A DNA stretch of 43,964 nt from a virus (taxonomy: Duplodnaviria > Heunggongvirae > Uroviricota > Caudoviricetes), in IMG/VR virus record IMGVR_UViG_3300025861_000004; one strand, given 5' to 3'. The position numbers and the translations under genes are program-made. The notes beneath the pieces are model-generated. The model ran no database searches. It was given only the letters and a program-made list of their open reading frames with translations, and was not told the DNA's origin. Below are positions 16,871 through 19,812 of this stretch, in pieces. Position 1 is the first letter of the stretch, and the number at the start of each line of letters is the position of its first letter.

Positions 16871-16900
16871 GCCTCCCTGTCGCGATGAGGTCGCGGTTCA

Positions 16901-16907
16901 GAGCTGA
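16901..16907 (-). promoter_or_regulatory. TCAGCTC promoter-like motif
   Basis: ATG 16870 at +31; -10 slot GCGAC. Confidence 0.75.
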
Positions 16908-16938
16908 CGCACTACTCGGCTTCGGATTGTGTGTTTTT

Positions 16939-16945
16939 TCAGCTC
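16939..16945 (+). promoter_or_regulatory. TCAGCTC motif upstream of the tRNA array
   Basis: -10 slot TTGAC (16963-16967); flanked by two T6 tracts. Confidence 0.65.
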
Positions 16946-17014
16946 TTTTTTCAGAAAACTATTTGACAGTATGCCGAACAAGTGGTTACTTCATTCACAC
17001 GTAGCGAGAACGCC

Positions 17015-17119
17015 ATGAACTCCTTCATCCACATCGAACAGCCAGAACCTACGACGGTCCCCGCGACCGATCGCGTGGACTCGCTCGATCAGGACCCCGA
17101 GGTGATGGCCTCCCGGTAG
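17015..17119 (+). CDS. Possible 34-aa leader peptide
   Basis: MNSFIHIEQPEPTTVPATDRVDSLDQDPEVMASR; lies between the promoter and a strong hairpin. Confidence 0.35.
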   Translation: MNSFIHIEQPEPTTVPATDRVDSLDQDPEVMASR

Positions 17120-17146
17120 ACGGTACGCTACATACGCACCGCCACC

Positions 17147-17190
17147 GAGAGGCCGGGACTTCGAGAGGAGTCCCGGCCTTTCTCGTTTAT
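17147..17190 (+). terminator. Terminator/attenuator-like hairpin
   Basis: AGGCCGGGACT/AGTCCCGGCCT 11-bp perfect stem (14 with extension), followed by TCGTTTAT. Confidence 0.55.
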
Positions 17191-17192
17191 GC

Positions 17193-17268
17193 GGTCCCAT
17201 CGGCCAATGGTCAAGCCGCCGGCCTCTCAAGTCGGAAATGGCGGGTTCAAGTCCCCCTGGGATCACCA
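17193..17268 (+). tRNA. tRNA-Glu(CUC)
   Basis: Full cloverleaf, loop CT-CTC-AA, TTCAAGT T-loop, encoded CCA. Confidence 0.88.
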
Positions 17269-17269
17269 C

Positions 17270-17340
17270 ACCCTGTTCGTCCAGCGGCAGGACGCCGGCT
17301 TTTCGCTCCGGAAAGGAGGGTTCAACTCCCTCACAGGGTA
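17270..17340 (+). tRNA. tRNA-Glu(UUC)
   Basis: ACCCTGT/ACAGGGT acceptor, loop TT-TTC-GC, one mismatch in the anticodon stem, no encoded CCA. Confidence 0.72.
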
Positions 17341-17349
17341 CATAATTAT

Positions 17350-17424
17350 GCCTCGTGATGCGACGGGTGTCGCAGTCCGACTGTCTATCGGATGAGAGGG
17401 GTTCAAGTCCCCTACGAGGCGCCA
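17350..17424 (+). tRNA. tRNA-Asp(GUC)
   Basis: GCCTCGT/ACGAGGC acceptor, TCCGA/TCGGA stem, CT-GTC-TA loop, CCA. Confidence 0.92.
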
Positions 17425-17444
17425 GTCATGGTATACATGAACCC

Positions 17445-18080
17445 ATGACATTACCGATCGGTCTACGAGAAGAAGCTGTTCGTCTCCGAGTCGAGGAGCG
17501 GCGTTCCAATAAGGAGATATGCACGAAGTTGAAGGTGTCGGCGGGAACCATGAGTTTTTGGCTAAAGGATCATCCGCTGGCCCCTGAAGAGAAACAAAGC
17601 AGGTGGAAGGAGAAGATGGAGGGCGGGGCTAGAAGACCTCGGGGTCCGCAGAAAATAAAAGATGTAGCAGGTCCATCTAAGCACTATGCGGTAGTGAAGG
17701 ACTGTGAATTATCTAATTCACATAAGATGGCCATATCTGAGTCTGCTATTCTATTTCGATTAGCTCTACATGGCTACGCTGTAGCTACTCCTGTATTTGA
17801 AGGGACTAAGATTGATTGGCTCGTCAAAGTTCCGACGACAGGTCGGATCATTCAGGTTCAGGTGAAGACGGTTCGCAAGGGATCGATCAGTCTTCGTTGT
17901 GCGAACGGTCGAGGCAAGCTGAGACGCTACGTGGAGGGTGAGTTTGATGTCATTGTTGGGTATGACCTGTTTTCTGATACGGCCTACGTGTACCTGGCCC
18001 GGGAGGTGATGCACCTGGGCTATGTTGCGGCAGCCTCCCAGGAGGCTGCCGAACGATGGGGTAAACTTCTGGAAGTTTGA
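17445..18080 (+). CDS. PD-(D/E)XK endonuclease of the group-I-intron-associated type, with N-terminal HTH
   Basis: SESAILFRL...IDWLV...IQVQVKT...FDVIVGYD; low GC; inserted between tRNAs. Confidence 0.8.
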   Translation: MTLPIGLREEAVRLRVEERRSNKEICTKLKVSAGTMSFWLKDHPLAPEEKQSRWKEKMEGGARRPRGPQKIKDVAGPSKHYAVVKDCELSNSHKMAISESAILFRLALHGYAVATPVFEGTKIDWLVKVPTTGRIIQVQVKTVRKGSISLRCANGRGKLRRYVEGEFDVIVGYDLFSDTAYVYLAREVMHLGYVAAASQEAAERWGKLLEV

Positions 18081-18086
18081 ATTTCT

Positions 18087-18160
18087 CGGGGTGTGACGCA
18101 GCCTGGTAGCGTACTTGCTTTGGAGGCAAGGAGCCGGAGGTTCAAATCCTCTCACCCCGA
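18087..18160 (+). tRNA. tRNA-Pro(UGG)
   Basis: CGGGGTG/CACCCCG acceptor, CTTGC/GCAAG stem, TT-TGG-AG loop. Confidence 0.92.
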
Positions 18161-18197
18161 CTCAGGAAGAAAAAAGATCGCGGGATCGATACTTTTC

Positions 18198-18204
18198 TCA
18201 GCTC
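18198..18204 (+). promoter_or_regulatory. TCAGCTC motif upstream of the structured RNA block
   Basis: -10 slot ACGAT; no credible ORF follows. Confidence 0.6.
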
Positions 18205-18240
18205 GGCCCCGTTCAGGGTATACGATAAGACTTCATAAAC

Positions 18241-18426
18241 GGCGATGGCTGCACGCCGAAGCCCAAACACCAAACTCCTTCGGGAGGGAAGTGGATGGGA
18301 CAAAGGGGCCACCAAACCTCAAGACCATTCGGGTTTGCTGTCGATCCGGCCCTTCCGCAAGGAGGGTGAAGTGGGCACCCCCCACAAGACAGCTTCCTGA
18401 CAAACCCTGAGGTGCCCCATGCGCCA
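18241..18426 (+). ncRNA. Candidate structured ncRNA
   Basis: Nested long-range pairings GGGGC/GCCCC, ACCTCA/TGAGGT, GGGTTTG/CAAACCC, CTGTC/GACAG; UUCG and GCAA tetraloop hairpins. Confidence 0.55.
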
Positions 18427-18459
18427 CTAAACAGATTGCTCCCCCCTCGGAAGGCTCAT

Positions 18460-18534
18460 ACAAGCGTAGCTCATCAGGTAGAGCATCGGTCTAACTCACC
18501 GAGGGTAGCTGGTTCAACTCCAGTCCTTGATCCA
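18460..18534 (+). tRNA. Atypical or degenerate tRNA-like element, anticodon AAC (Val)
   Basis: Canonical D, anticodon (TCGGT/ACCGA) and T arms; defective acceptor stem; U37; ends in CCA. Confidence 0.5.
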
Positions 18535-18535
18535 A

Positions 18536-18860
18536 ACGGGCCCCACACTCGGGGAGCAGTTTCACCTTCGTAGGCCAGGTTCATGACCTGGCCAAACAGG
18601 GTCGGTACGCTAACCAAGCGGCTGCGGCTTCCACCGCAGCGATGCCAGCTGGACGCTGGCCCGTCCCCCTAAGACTCCGCCCTCGGCGGGACCTTACATG
18701 CGCGCCGTCGCAAGGCGGCACCTAATCTCCACCAAAACGGGGATACTTGGCTCATACCCAAGCAACGACCATGTGAGGTCACCAAAGACGGTCCCGCCTC
18801 TCGCGGGGTCTGTCCTCTGACAACCGAATACCAGCTTCTTCTCCCCCTCGGGTCGATCCA
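18536..18860 (+). ncRNA. Candidate multi-hairpin ncRNA(s), punctuated by CCA at 18732-18734 and 18858-18860
   Basis: ACGGGCC/GGCCCGT closes four hairpins; further GCAA-loop hairpin and a cloverleaf-like fold at 18739-18817. Confidence 0.5.
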
Positions 18861-18862
18861 AC

Positions 18863-18937
18863 ATGCTTATCGCCCAGTGGTTGGGCATCTGTCTACGGAA
18901 CAGACCTCGGCAGGTTCAATTCCTGCTAAGCGTACCA
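18863..18937 (+). tRNA. tRNA-Arg(ACG)
   Basis: ATGCTTA/TAAGCGT acceptor, TCTGT/ACAGA stem, CT-ACG-GA loop, CCA. Confidence 0.92.
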
Positions 18938-18988
18938 CCAAGGGTCGACACACTCGGGAGGAGATCCCCATCGGCCGCAAGGCCGGTA

Positions 18989-19039
18989 GCGGCCCGACGG
19001 TCTCCCCCCCCGACAAGACCGTCGGGCCGCTTTTCTTTT
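18989..19039 (+). terminator. Intrinsic terminator ending the RNA island
   Basis: 15-bp stem GCGGCCCGACGGTCT/AGACCGTCGGGCCGC followed by TTTTCTTTT. Confidence 0.85.
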
Positions 19040-19045
19040 CAGCTC
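19039..19045 (+). promoter_or_regulatory. TCAGCTC promoter-like motif
   Basis: ATG 19076 at +31; -10 slot GCGAC. Confidence 0.75.
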
Positions 19046-19075
19046 CAGATTCACGCTGGGTCGCGACGACCCGGC

Positions 19076-19351
19076 ATGCCCTACAGCTTCACGTACAAGC
19101 AGCTCGTCGCGTACCTGCGACGGACCGGATGGACCTACGACGAGTCCTCCATGTTCTGGCGGCACCCCGACACGTTCGAGGTGGTCTGTGTGGACTCGAA
19201 CTACGACCTTGGTCGGGGTCTTGTGCGGGCCTCGATCCTCGGAGTTCTCGGGCGGCTGAAGGCGCGGGACCAGAAGGGTCCTGACCTCCCGGAGGAGGAA
19301 CTCACGCGGCTCAGCTCCGATCCGCAGGCTCATGTCGACTCGTCGACATGA
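19076..19351 (+). CDS. HicA-like small protein lacking the catalytic His
   Basis: YKQLVAYLRRTGW...SSMFWRHPD...VVCV...DLGRGLVRASIL follows the HicA pattern. Confidence 0.45.
   Translation: MPYSFTYKQLVAYLRRTGWTYDESSMFWRHPDTFEVVCVDSNYDLGRGLVRASILGVLGRLKARDQKGPDLPEEELTRLSSDPQAHVDSST
19311..19317 (+). promoter_or_regulatory. TCAGCTC promoter-like motif
   Basis: ATG 19348 at +31; -10 slot TCGAC. Confidence 0.75.
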
Positions 19352-19812
19352 GCCACTACGCAGACCCCACCTCCAGCGACTTCGCCCCTAACCCGCGCGC
19401 CATCTGCGGACAGGCTGGGCCCCTCACCGAGGATCCTCGCCAGGTCGACTGCGAGGCGTGCCGGGGGCGGATGGCGGCCCACCTGGCCATGACGCTTGGT
19501 CTGGATGTCGAGGCCGACTACGACCAGCGCGAGGTCTGCCCGCATGGGGACGACGACGAGTGCTCCTGCCCGCTTGAGCCGACCAAGTACTACGCGTGGG
19601 AGGAGACGTTTGCGGTCTCTCGACCCCACTACGACCTGTCGTTCGAGATCGGTCGTGAGGTCGCGCTCCAGGTCGGGGGTGAGGGGACGGAGCAGGGTCC
19701 CTCCCGCCTACGGAGCGTCAAGAAGGACTTCGTCTCGGAGGGAGAGGCCGCCCTCCACTACCTGCGCGTCCTGCGGGACCGCCTCAACGTCGTGCTCGGA
19801 GACAAGTCGTGA
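19348..19812 (+). CDS. Hypothetical Cys-containing protein
   Basis: First of a translationally coupled run; high GC3. Confidence 0.7.
   Translation: MSHYADPTSSDFAPNPRAICGQAGPLTEDPRQVDCEACRGRMAAHLAMTLGLDVEADYDQREVCPHGDDDECSCPLEPTKYYAWEETFAVSRPHYDLSFEIGREVALQVGGEGTEQGPSRLRSVKKDFVSEGEAALHYLRVLRDRLNVVLGDKS

What the first reader, a model, noticed from the sequence alone, without database searches (positions are those of the whole stretch)
18241..18860. About 620 nt of unexplained structured RNA, punctuated like a tRNA polycistron
After its own motif promoter comes a non-coding block rich in helices and stable tetraloops (UUCG at 18279-18282; GCAA at 18357-18360 and 18710-18713). Units are delimited as CCA + short A-rich linker + new 5' end: 18532-CCA-AAC-GGGCC, 18732-CCA-AAAC-GGGGAT, 18858-CCA-AC-tRNA-Arg. 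The end at 18725-18734 (ATCTCC-A-CCA) can pair with GGGGAT (18739-18744), giving a G3:U70 Ala-identity-like acceptor. 18536-18664 forms a four-hairpin junction and 18739-18817 a cloverleaf without T-loop consensus. These could be tRNA mimics or decoys, or part of a large phage ncRNA; GOLLD and ROOL are known to sit beside phage tRNAs.
Basis: partly seen in the sequence, partly recalled or inferred. Interest (0 to 1): 0.76.

Follow-up and report, generated by a model that had tools for sequence, protein, structure and literature searches.

The report
Clamped tRNA-like RNA cluster in phage
The "unexplained" stretch is the bulk of one roughly 800-base RNA of an uncultured giant phage, built from several tRNA-derived folds, three of them locked inside a repeated helix formed by their own flanks. 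The folds are kept by compensating mutations in related phages while the anticodons drift, so these are probably tRNA mimics rather than ordinary tRNAs.

Summary

**The unit.** The interval lies in one transcription unit of a ~278-kb jumbo phage. It runs from the phage promoter at 18198-18226 to the terminator at 18989-19036.

**Support.** I found six further lineages at 73-88% identity. On the 10-row alignment:
- 97% of 154 proposed pairs hold.
- 31 pairs change on both sides, against 16±2 in shuffles and 0-2 in slid controls.
- RNAalifold recovers the same helices independently.

**Contents.**
- A poorly conserved 5' leader (48% identity). Both 5' tetraloops sit in window-only insertions.
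- Three paralogous leader-trailer "clamps" with a conserved CCUC/ACUC internal loop. They enclose:
  - a remodelled four-hairpin body (18694-18789);
  - the "tRNA-Arg".
- A free cloverleaf (18599-18667) with non-canonical D and T loops.

**Anticodons** drift between close relatives: AAC/CAC/AUC/CUC in unit 1 and ACG/AAG/AUG in unit 3. The phage has a full canonical tRNA set elsewhere.

Only the CCA at 18532 behaves as an end. The CCA at 18732 is a hairpin loop, replaced by UUCG in a relative. The proposed junction and cloverleaf closures fail.

**Known families.** There is no Rfam family; GOLLD, ROOL and YrlA are all absent.

**Function.** Mimic or decoy is inference only.

Other first readers of this scan noted the same sequence on another assembly.

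The parts
18198..18226 (+). Phage two-box promoter (TCAGCTCG, 16 nt, ACGAT). The transcript start is inferred at about 18235.
   Evidence: The motif is enriched in the window. The box and its spacing are nearly invariant in all lineages that cover it (columns 36-64). The start is inferred from the spacing at the neighbouring gene's promoter (19039 motif, ATG 19076).
18235..18435 (+). Variable 5' leader. It includes two window-lineage-only blocks: 18268-18292 with the UUCG hairpin and 18331-18399 with the GCAA hairpin.
   Evidence: Mean pairwise identity is 48%. The two blocks are gapped in every other lineage. Fold z is -1.1.
18436..18459 (+). Clamp 1, 5' strand: outer stem 18436-18444, internal loop CCUC 18445-18448, inner stem 18449-18457.
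   Evidence: It pairs with 18538-18559. Changes on both sides: C-G to U-A in the outer stem, C-G to A-U and U.G to C-G or U-A in the inner stem (helices 2-3, 83).
18460..18534 (+). tRNA-like 1. The D, anticodon and T arms are canonical, only the inner 4 acceptor pairs form, and the 3' CCA is conserved. The anticodon is AAC here.
   Evidence: ARAGORN calls Val-aac. Rfam tRNA gives 36 bits for model positions 7-64 only. Acceptor cells are 57% paired, while the anticodon and T stems covary (helices 4-7). The anticodon is AAC, AUC or CUC in the aligned lineages and CAC in run X2.
18535..18559 (+). Clamp 1, 3' strand: inner stem 18538-18546, loop ACUC 18547-18550, outer stem 18551-18559. It can also form a local hairpin, 18541-44 with 18551-54.
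   Evidence: The alternative hairpin is kept in all lineages.
18573..18593 (+). Hairpin B (7-bp stem).
   Evidence: Two pairs change on both sides (helix 8). Run X2 adds two more compensated pairs, 18574/18592 and 18577/18589.
18599..18667 (+). tRNA-like 2: a free cloverleaf with D loop UAACCAA, an invariant T loop CUGGACG, a variable 6-7-nt 'anticodon' loop and no CCA.
   Evidence: All four stems covary (helices 9-12: 3, 2, 2 and 2 pairs changed on both sides). ARAGORN calls the homologous stretch 'tRNA-Ile gat' in L023-L029. Rfam gives no tRNA hit in the window.
18675..18693 (+). Clamp 2, 5' strand: outer CUCCGC 18675-80, loop CCUCGG, inner CGGGACC 18687-93.
   Evidence: It is complementary to 18790-18808. 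It is predicted by the single-sequence MFE and by RNAalifold. The stems are invariant, so covariation cannot separate this from local hairpins 18676-90 and 18790-18810.
18694..18789 (+). Unit 2 body: leader UUACAUGCG, hairpin D 18704-19 (GNRA loop), hairpin E 18725-44, hairpin F 18746-62 (7-nt loop CUCAUAC), hairpin G 18767-80, then ACCA 18781-84 and an A-rich linker.
   Evidence: Hairpins D and E covary. Hairpins F and G are invariant (helices 15-18). The hairpin E loop is replaced by UUCG in L021 and ACAA in L023.
18790..18808 (+). Clamp 2, 3' strand: GGUCCCG, CCUCUC, GCGGGG.
   Evidence: It is 100% identical in all lineages..
18837..18862 (+). Clamp 3, 5' strand: outer stem 18837-45, loop CCUC, inner stem 18852-58, linker CAAC.
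   Evidence: It pairs with 18943-18964. Two outer pairs and one inner pair change on both sides (helices 19-20).
18863..18937 (+). Clamped tRNA ('Arg-ACG'; outside the finding's interval but part of the same unit). It has a full 7-bp acceptor, A73, CCA, U20 and G37.
   Evidence: The anticodon is ACG, AAG or AUG across lineages on an unchanged acceptor stem and discriminator. The phage's canonical Arg-ACG elsewhere has A20.
18938..18964 (+). Clamp 3, 3' strand: linker CCAAG, inner stem 18943-49, loop ACUC, outer stem 18956-64.
18989..19036 (+). Intrinsic terminator: a 14-bp stem followed by a T run.
   Evidence: Five pairs change on both sides (helix 26). Its inner 6-bp core (19009-19026) was picked up by the terminator scan.

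Best explanation
**What is shown.** The interval is the bulk of one roughly 800-nt non-coding transcription unit of an uncultured jumbo phage. The unit is assembled from tRNA-derived modules.

- Three paralogous units share one plan: outer stem, a CCUC/ACUC-type internal loop, an inner stem, a (C)UACAUGC leader, a body ending in CCA, and an A-rich linker. The flanks of each body pair to form a leader-trailer 'clamp'.
- The three bodies are:
  - a tRNA-like RNA with a truncated acceptor stem;
  - a remodelled four-hairpin RNA;
  - a complete tRNA that lacks the A20 identity base of tRNA-Arg.
- A fourth module is a free cloverleaf with swapped-type D and T loops.

**What is inferred.**
- The unit is made as one precursor. 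The clamps act as processing or protecting stems, as the leader-trailer helices of rRNA operons do. They release or hold several stable small tRNA-shaped RNAs.
- These RNAs do not serve as ordinary decoders. They act through their tRNA shape, as mimics, competitors or decoys for enzymes that bind tRNA. Host tRNA-targeting nucleases are the most plausible target.
For: **Unit boundaries**
- The promoter and terminator are conserved (helix 26).

**Structure**
- z = -5.4.
- 97.1% of cells are paired. 31 of 154 pairs change on both sides, against 16.1±2.3 in shuffles (0 of 500 reach the observed value) and 0-2 when the partners are slid.
- RNAalifold finds the same clamps, cloverleaf and hairpins unaided.
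- A further lineage in run X2 adds six more compensated pairs.

**Selection**
- The modules are 72-100% identical while the leader has decayed to 48%.

**Paralogy and uniqueness of the clamps**
- All three units share motifs.
- Of 48 phage tRNAs, only these two have both flank motifs. Their flank duplexes are among the strongest of the 48: -34.6 and -33.2 kcal/mol against a median of -21.3, exceeded only by Phe-GAA (-38.2) and Arg-CCU (-35.8).

**Not ordinary decoders**
- The anticodon changes among close relatives on an unchanged acceptor stem and A73.
- Unit 1 has only 4 acceptor pairs (helix 4).
- The clamped 'Arg' has U20, whereas the phage's canonical Arg-ACG has A20. A20 and C35 as ArgRS identity elements, and G-1/C73 for HisRS, are textbook knowledge rather than something tested here.
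- The phage carries a near-complete canonical tRNA set elsewhere.

**Precedents**
- rRNA leader-trailer helices (PMC10250234).
- A tRNA-like leader-trailer interaction that aids RNase P processing (PMC8457004).
- tRNA-mimicking YrlA RNAs (PMC4201824).
- Phage tRNAs as counters to host tRNases (PMC10264068).
Against: - There are no RNA data, so transcription as one unit, any cleavage site and the stability of the products are all unshown.
- Only about seven lineages of one narrow phage clade are available, and they are related and partly mosaic. Counts of compensatory cells therefore overstate the number of independent events.
- Clamp 2 is invariant and cannot be told apart from two local hairpins.
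- A local hairpin that competes with clamp 1 is also kept in all lineages.
- No RNase III, Ro60 or tRNA deaminase was found on the 255 kb of phage contigs held, so no dedicated partner protein is known.
- Anticodon drift could also mean real switches of decoding specificity.
- Nothing links the RNA to any defence system.
Confidence: 0.55

Rival explanations
1. It is an ordinary phage tRNA operon. Units 1 and 3 are working tRNAs with unusual A34 (possibly inosine) anticodons. The clamps merely control the timing or order of maturation, and the rest is structured spacer.
For: - Units 1 and 3 keep canonical D and T loops, 7-nt anticodon loops with U33, and an encoded CCA.
- Unit 3 has a perfect 7-bp acceptor (helix 21).
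- A34 is kept in most variants.
Against: - The acceptor of unit 1 is mispaired at positions 1-3 in all lineages (helix 4).
- AUC or AUG anticodons with I34 would misread Glu and Gln codons (standard wobble rules, not tested here).
- The 'His-AUG' and 'Leu-AAG' variants share the acceptor and A73 of the 'Arg' variant.
- No phage deaminase was found.
- Canonical isoacceptors already exist in the phage.
Confidence: 0.2
2. The spacers are decaying tRNA pseudogenes left by tandem duplication. The structure is an evolutionary relic without function.
For: The three units are clearly paralogous, and the modules look like remodelled tRNAs.
Against: - 24 of the pairs inside 18436-18862 change on both sides while staying paired.
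- 45 nt around 18767-18810 are almost invariant, while the adjacent leader has fallen to 48% identity.
Confidence: 0.07
3. The roughly 800 nt act as one large ncRNA, in the manner of GOLLD or ROOL next to phage tRNAs, with tRNA-like domains, rather than being cut into pieces.
For: - There is a single promoter and a single terminator.
- RNAalifold proposes a weak 4-bp long-range helix, 18432-35 with about 18815-18818, bracketing units 1-2.
- Linkers are 66% A+C and G-poor, as in compact multi-domain RNAs.
Against: - No Rfam match to GOLLD, ROOL or any large ncRNA.
- The long-range helix from the single-sequence MFE fails in relatives.
- The modules are self-contained local domains.
- The leader and inter-module linkers are poorly conserved.
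Confidence: 0.1
4. The clamped modules are divergent Y RNAs (YrlA-like): a terminal stem that binds a Ro60 protein plus a tRNA-like domain.
For: The architecture is alike: a stem formed by the two flanks, with an internal loop, closing a tRNA-like domain (PMC4201824). Ro60 homologues do occur in phages (PMC12135203, title and abstract).
Against: - No YrlA or Y RNA hit at E <= 10. The same library does pick up sub-threshold YrlA copies beside a Ro60 gene on another contig of the bin.
- The GNCGAAN0-1G stem motif is not conserved.
- No TROVE gene lies on C103 or C242. About 23 kb of the phage is not in the bin.
Confidence: 0.05

Closest known systems
Leader-trailer (processing) helices flanking 16S and 23S rRNA in bacterial rRNA operons (PMC10250234)
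   Same: Sequences on both sides of a stable RNA are complementary and enclose it in a long helix within a polycistronic precursor. The helix is kept by covariation.
   Different: - Here the enclosed RNAs are tRNA-sized (75-96 nt).
- The helix is short (7-9 plus 5-9 bp), with a sequence-conserved 4x4 pyrimidine-rich internal loop repeated three times.
- Cleavage by RNase III is untested.
Phage T4 RNAC and RNAD, small RNAs from the T4 tRNA gene region with unknown role (PMC3014915)
   Same: They are non-tRNA stable RNAs encoded within, and co-transcribed with, a phage tRNA cluster, and their function is unknown.
   Different: - No sequence similarity to any phage in the INPHARED collection, which should include T4.
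- No clamp architecture is described for the T4 RNAs, as far as I know.
Bacterial Y RNA YrlA (Rfam RF02553; PMC4201824)
   Same: A tRNA mimic whose tRNA-like domain is closed by a stem made from the flanking strands. It is recognised by tRNA enzymes.
   Different: - No covariance-model match.
- No conserved Ro60-binding motif.
- No Ro60 gene nearby.
- Here the modules keep a full anticodon arm and are arrayed three in a row in one transcript.
mascRNA / MALAT1 tRNA-like leader-trailer interaction (PMC8457004) and plant mitochondrial t-elements
   Same: A tRNA-like fold inside a longer transcript serves as a processing signal. Pairing between leader and trailer extends the acceptor stem and promotes cleavage.
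   Different: - Those are eukaryotic or organellar.
- They have a single element and no conserved internal loop.
- The 'extension' here is separated from the acceptor stem by 3-5-nt linkers.
Phage tRNAs with altered anticodon loops proposed to escape host anticodon nucleases (PMC10264068)
   Same: These are phage-borne tRNAs whose anticodon loops depart from the host consensus. Variation is concentrated in the loop.
   Different: - Those tRNAs keep their anticodon and decoding identity.
- Here the anticodon itself changes between close relatives.
- One member here lacks a proper acceptor stem.

Membership tests
Canonical tRNA (Rfam RF00005) | Four-stem cloverleaf with a 7-bp acceptor stem | tested here: not met
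   - tRNA-like 1: acceptor cells are 57% paired and positions 1-3 are unpaired in all lineages (helix 4). Rfam aligns only model positions 7-64.
- tRNA-like 2: all four stems are present and covary (helices 9-12).
- The unit 2 body has no acceptor stem.
Canonical tRNA (Rfam RF00005) | D loop with GG and T loop UUCRANY | tested here: inconclusive
   - Met in tRNA-like 1 and in the clamped 'Arg'.
- Not met in tRNA-like 2 (D loop UAACCAA, T loop CUGGACG), which gets no Rfam tRNA hit at E <= 10.
- ARAGORN does call its homologue in L023-L029.
Canonical tRNA (Rfam RF00005) | Anticodon conserved together with the identity elements of one amino acid | tested here: not met
   - Unit 1 has AAC, CAC, AUC or CUC. 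Unit 3 has ACG, AAG or AUG on the same acceptor stem and A73.
- The clamped 'Arg' has U20, whereas the canonical phage Arg has A20.
GOLLD (RF01998) / ROOL (RF03087) large phage-associated ncRNAs | Match to the family covariance model | tested here: not met
   cmscan of the window at gathering scores, and of 16900-19200 at E <= 10, lists neither family.
YrlA / bacterial Y RNA (RF02553, RF01053) | Match to the covariance model | tested here: not met
   No hit at E <= 10 in 16900-19200. The same models give 30-42-bit hits on contig C179 of the same bin.
YrlA / bacterial Y RNA (RF02553, RF01053) | Ro60-binding stem with the GNCGAAN0-1G motif (PMC4201824) | tested here: not met
   The only match, GCCGAAG at 18253-18259, lies in the variable leader and reads GCCGGAG in L014. 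None of the clamp strands carries the motif.
YrlA / bacterial Y RNA (RF02553, RF01053) | Encoded next to a Ro60 (TROVE) gene | tested here: not met
   The TROVE family hits only C179, not the phage contigs C103 and C242. About 23 kb of the 278-kb phage is not in the bin, so absence from the whole phage is not shown.
RNase III-type leader-trailer processing helix | Complementary flanks enclosing a stable RNA, kept by covariation | tested here: met
   Clamps 1 and 3 each have 3 pairs changed on both sides and 97-100% paired cells (helices 2, 3, 19, 20). They are recovered by RNAalifold. Clamp 2 is invariant.
RNase III-type leader-trailer processing helix | Cleavage of the helix by RNase III (or another double-strand nuclease) | not testable with these tools
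   No RNA end data are available. No RNA run holder was listed. RNase III is found only on the non-phage contig C220.
tmRNA / 6S / SRP RNA | Match to the family covariance model | tested here: not met
   Searches give no hit. ARAGORN finds no tmRNA in the window.

The most novel reading that the evidence does not exclude
The unit encodes a new class of 'caged' tRNA mimics. The repeated clamp, with its invariant CCUC/ACUC loop, would be the recognition site of a dedicated factor, either a nuclease or a binding protein of the phage or the host. That factor would release or hold non-decoding tRNA-shaped RNAs. These RNAs would soak up or mislead host tRNA-targeting immunity such as anticodon nucleases or tail-cleaving nucleases. 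The fast-changing anticodon loops would then be the trace of an arms race with those enzymes.
Probability: 0.18. Interest if true: 0.85.

Novelty: new variant of a known kind. Interest (0 to 1): 0.62.

Why it matters
Phage tRNA clusters have long been known to carry extra stable RNAs of unknown role. T4 RNAC and RNAD are still unexplained. Here a comparable RNA comes with a clear, covariation-backed anatomy:

- a repeated leader-trailer clamp around tRNA-shaped bodies;
- a cloverleaf with non-canonical D and T loops;
- anticodons that drift while everything else is held.

This gives concrete, testable hypotheses. One can ask which nuclease cuts the clamp, whether the products are charged, and whether they protect the phage against tRNA-targeting defences.

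If the mimic or decoy reading holds, it would add an RNA-based layer to the current picture of phage tRNAs as counter-defence tools. It would also supply a compact natural scaffold for presenting tRNA-like RNAs.

Tried and rejected
**Searches for relatives that found nothing**
- DNA search of the INPHARED phage collection with 18160-19060: no match.
- DNA search of 60 relatives and 400 genomes of the phylum: only short tRNA-like hits.
- Protein-guided loci for the PD-(D/E)XK and 154-aa neighbours in genome contigs and viral contigs: nothing.
- Pattern scans:
  - anticodon-arm pattern and conserved-core pattern in viral contigs: nothing;
  - core pattern in genome contigs: nothing;
  - core pattern in metagenome contigs: one chance hit, L035, with 37 nt at 81% and no tRNA;
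  - clamp-signature pattern in viral contigs: six chance hits in coding DNA.

**RNA evidence**
- No RNA holder was listed.
- Run X1 is labelled metatranscriptomic but is probably DNA. It gave one 220-nt contig over 18431-18561 from a related lineage. This says nothing about expression or RNA ends.

**Structures rejected**
- The long-range MFE helix, 18551-56 with 18841-46.
- An acceptor-like pairing, 18694-18700 with 18770-76, is possible but invariant, so it cannot be tested.

**Other checks**
- Coding: the ORFs in the interval (51 aa at 18245-18400, 40 aa at 18698-18820) are not conserved. The first lies in the lineage-specific insertion, and substitutions follow helices rather than codons.
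- Partner proteins: no RNase III, Ro60 or cytidine/adenosine-deaminase family gene lies on the phage contigs.
- The conserved 154-aa Cys-rich neighbour has no family. The Atlas gave nothing above chance.
- Further copies of the CUGGACG T-arm or of the clamp motif pair in the phage: none.
Full report
**Context.** The window lies on contig C103 of a 7.2-Mb bin. C103 and C242 share a phage promoter box and carry 48 tRNA genes between them. Earlier notes of this scan describe the source as a roughly 278-kb uncultured jumbo phage from activated sludge, with a two-box promoter (TCAGCTCC, 16 nt, TCGAC). I re-checked only the box. TCAGCTC occurs 26 times in the window against 8.7 expected, and one copy with the right spacing to an ACGAT box sits at 18198-18226. 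By analogy with the next promoter (box at 19039, ATG at 19076), the transcript should start near 18235. A covarying 14-bp terminator with a T run ends the unit at 19036. The finding's interval is therefore most of one roughly 800-nt unit that also contains the annotated tRNA-Arg.

**The observation.** Rfam's tRNA model matches it at 36 bits, but only over model positions 7-64, that is without the acceptor stem. No other Rfam family matches, either at gathering scores or at E <= 10. GOLLD, ROOL, YrlA, 6S, tmRNA and SRP are all absent. Single-sequence folding separates two halves:
- 18535-18862 is far more stable than shuffles (z = -5.4 on the + strand, -3.0 on the - strand).
- 18162-18459 is not (z = -1.1 and +0.2).

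**Relatives.** DNA searches of the phage collection, of 460 genomes and of IMG/VR found nothing beyond tRNA fragments. The neighbouring 91-aa and 154-aa proteins did lead to syntenic contigs in public assemblies. These give six further lineages at 73-88% identity over the unit:
- L031 with L032-34
- L021/22
- L014-16
- L023
- L024-29
- a contig of run X2

 L031 is a mosaic: its first half resembles L014 and its second half resembles the window.

**Structure.**
- *Fixed structure on the 10-row alignment A2.* With 154 pairs in 26 helices, 97.1% of cells pair and 31 pairs show changes on both sides. Shuffles give 16.1±2.3 such pairs, and none of 500 reaches the observed value. Sliding the 3' partners gives 0-2.
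- *Pairs inside the interval.* 24 of the 31 pairs lie inside 18436-18862.
- *Independent prediction.* RNAalifold, run without my structure on six lineages, returns the same helices: 160 pairs, 25 of them compensated.
- *Extra lineage.* Run X2 adds six more compensated pairs: 18574/18592, 18577/18589, 18603/18663, 18604/18662, 18648/18656 and 18707/18716.
- *Caveat.* The lineages are few, related and partly recombinant, so these are counts of cells, not of independent events.
- *Conservation by module.* Mean pairwise identity is 48% in the 5' leader and 72-100% in the modules. The 3' strand of clamp 2 is invariant.
- *The two 5' tetraloops.* The UUCG and first GCAA hairpins lie in two blocks (18268-18292 and 18331-18399) that only the window's lineage has.

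**Anatomy.** I tested this and extended it to three paralogous units.
- *Shared plan.* Each unit reads: outer stem, CCUC(GG), inner stem, (C)UACAUGC leader, body ending in CCA, A-rich linker, inner stem, ACUC (CCUCUC in unit 2), outer stem.
- *Clamp 1* (18436-59 with 18535-59) and *clamp 3* (18837-62 with 18938-64) covary. Examples are C-G to U-A in both outer stems, and C-G to A-U and A-U to G-C in the inner stems.
- *Clamp 2* (18675-93 with 18790-18808) is invariant. It is predicted by the MFE and by RNAalifold, but covariation cannot separate it from two local hairpins.
- *A competing hairpin.* A local trailer hairpin that competes with clamp 1 is also kept in all lineages. The clamp may therefore open into it.
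- *Specificity.* Within the phage, only these two tRNAs have both flank motifs. Their flank duplexes (-34.6 and -33.2 kcal/mol against a median of -21.3) are among the strongest of the 48; only Phe-GAA (-38.2) and Arg-CCU (-35.8) are stronger.

**The enclosed bodies.**
- *Unit 1* has canonical D, anticodon and T arms that covary. Only the inner four acceptor pairs form, and positions 1-3 are mispaired in every lineage (helix 4).
- *Unit 2* (18694-18789) is four hairpins. D has a GNRA loop kept as GCAA or GUAA, and E covaries. F (7-nt loop CUCAUAC) and G are invariant. The body ends in ACCA.
- *Unit 3* is the 'tRNA-Arg', with a perfect acceptor stem.
- *Between units 1 and 2* lie hairpin B and a free cloverleaf (18599-18667). 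All four of its stems covary. Its T loop is an invariant CUGGACG and its D loop is UAACCAA. ARAGORN calls the homologue 'tRNA-Ile gat' in L023-L029, but Rfam sees no tRNA in the window. CC in the D loop opposite GG in the T loop suggests a swapped G19-C56-type contact. That is inference only.

- The CCA at 18532 is the conserved end of unit 1.
- The CCA at 18732 is inside the loop of hairpin E. That loop is UUCG in L021 and ACAA in L023, so it is not an end. The 'G3:U70' wobble becomes C-G in L023/24.
- 'CCA-AC' at 18858 is the end of the clamp 3 inner strand plus its linker.
- The closing helices of the 'four-hairpin junction' and of the 18739-18817 'cloverleaf' break in relatives.

**Are units 1 and 3 ordinary tRNAs?**
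- The anticodon of unit 1 is AAC (window, L021), CAC (X2), AUC (L014, L023, L024, X1) or CUC (L031).
- The anticodon of unit 3 is ACG (window, L031-34), AAG (L014, L023-29) or AUG (L021).
- Unit 3 keeps the same acceptor stem and A73 throughout.
- The phage already has a canonical tRNA-Arg(ACG) with A20 and a CUACGAA loop, three Val, six Leu and two His genes. The clamped 'Arg' has U20 and G37.
- By textbook identity rules (A20/C35 for ArgRS; G-1/C73 for HisRS), these variants are unlikely to be charged according to their anticodons. I34 in AUC or AUG would misread Glu or Gln codons.
- No deaminase gene is on the phage contigs.

I therefore read these as tRNA-shaped RNAs whose anticodon is not under decoding constraint. 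This remains an inference.

**Mechanism.** What is shown is a conserved, promoter-to-terminator unit of tRNA-derived, covarying modules with a repeated leader-trailer clamp. What is inferred is the following.
- The clamps are processing or protective stems, analogous to rRNA leader-trailer helices (PMC10250234) and to the leader-trailer pairing at mascRNA (PMC8457004).
- The products act as tRNA mimics. The current view of phage tRNAs as counters to host tRNases (PMC10264068) makes a decoy role the most attractive guess.
- Nothing here links the RNA to a defence system.
- No RNase III, Ro60 or other obvious partner lies on the 255 kb of phage held.
- YrlA is the nearest known tRNA mimic with a closing stem (PMC4201824), but membership fails on the covariance model, the motif and the gene neighbourhood.
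- T4 RNAC and RNAD are the nearest precedent in kind: small RNAs of unknown role in a phage tRNA region (PMC3014915). There is no sequence similarity.

**Verdict.** It is a narrow-clade, computation-only result without expression data. I class it as a new variant of a known kind (phage tRNA-cluster ncRNAs and tRNA mimics) and score interest at 0.62.

Noticed in passing
window 17349-17421: This is a tRNA-like gene that ARAGORN misses. It has a 7-bp acceptor, an unusual 5-6-bp D stem with a 4-nt loop, and the anticodon loop CUGUCUA (GUC). Rfam scores it only with the tRNA-Sec model (37 bits, below the cut-off of 47). Relatives have a canonical tRNA-Asp(GUC) just before tRNA-Pro instead.
   Followed up: partly
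window 17358-18080; L014:4456-5005: Different homing-endonuclease-like genes sit inside the tRNA cluster in different lineages. The window has a PD-(D/E)XK ORF that is absent from L014, L021 and L023. L014 has a LAGLIDADG-like ORF (LLEGEGSF motif) at the corresponding place. This recalls SegB in the T4 tRNA region (PMC2330249).
   Followed up: partly
G000 contig C179 (loci L038, L039, L043): A separate 16.8-kb contig of the bin lacks the phage promoter box. It carries 11 tRNAs, an RtcB fragment, a Ro60 (TROVE) gene and, just upstream of it, three sub-threshold YrlA or Deinococcus Y RNA matches (30-42 bits). This is probably a tandem Y RNA locus of another element.
   Followed up: partly
window 17015-17119: A 34-codon ORF lies between the promoter box at 16939 and a strong hairpin at 17147-17182, just before the tRNA-Glu pair. 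A gene of the same size is called at the same place in all syntenic relatives (L014, L018-L023).
   Followed up: no
window 19076-19351: A HicA-like 91-aa gene (Pfam HicA_toxin, E = 7e-4, below the cut-off) lies directly after the unit's terminator. It is present in the window and L014-16 lineages but not called in L021, L023 or L024.
   Followed up: partly
L031:1-721 compared with L014 and the window: The RNA unit is mosaic between lineages. L031 is L014-like up to about the middle of tRNA-like 2 and window-like afterwards, so modules (and anticodon variants) are exchanged by recombination.
   Followed up: partly
L045:3750-5543 (IMGVR_UViG_3300028802_000186): An unrelated viral contig, hit by chance, carries odd tRNA calls: Pyl(cta), an unassignable tRNA with a 2-base 'anticodon', Val(aac) of 69 nt, and Trp(cca). 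This is another phage with an AAC-anticodon tRNA.
   Followed up: no
window 19348-19812: The 154-aa protein after the HicA-like gene is conserved (73-83% identity) in all lineages. It has invariant Cys and His residues (C20, C35, C38, C64, H66, C72, C74) that suggest a metal site. It matches no Pfam or PHROG family.
   Followed up: partly
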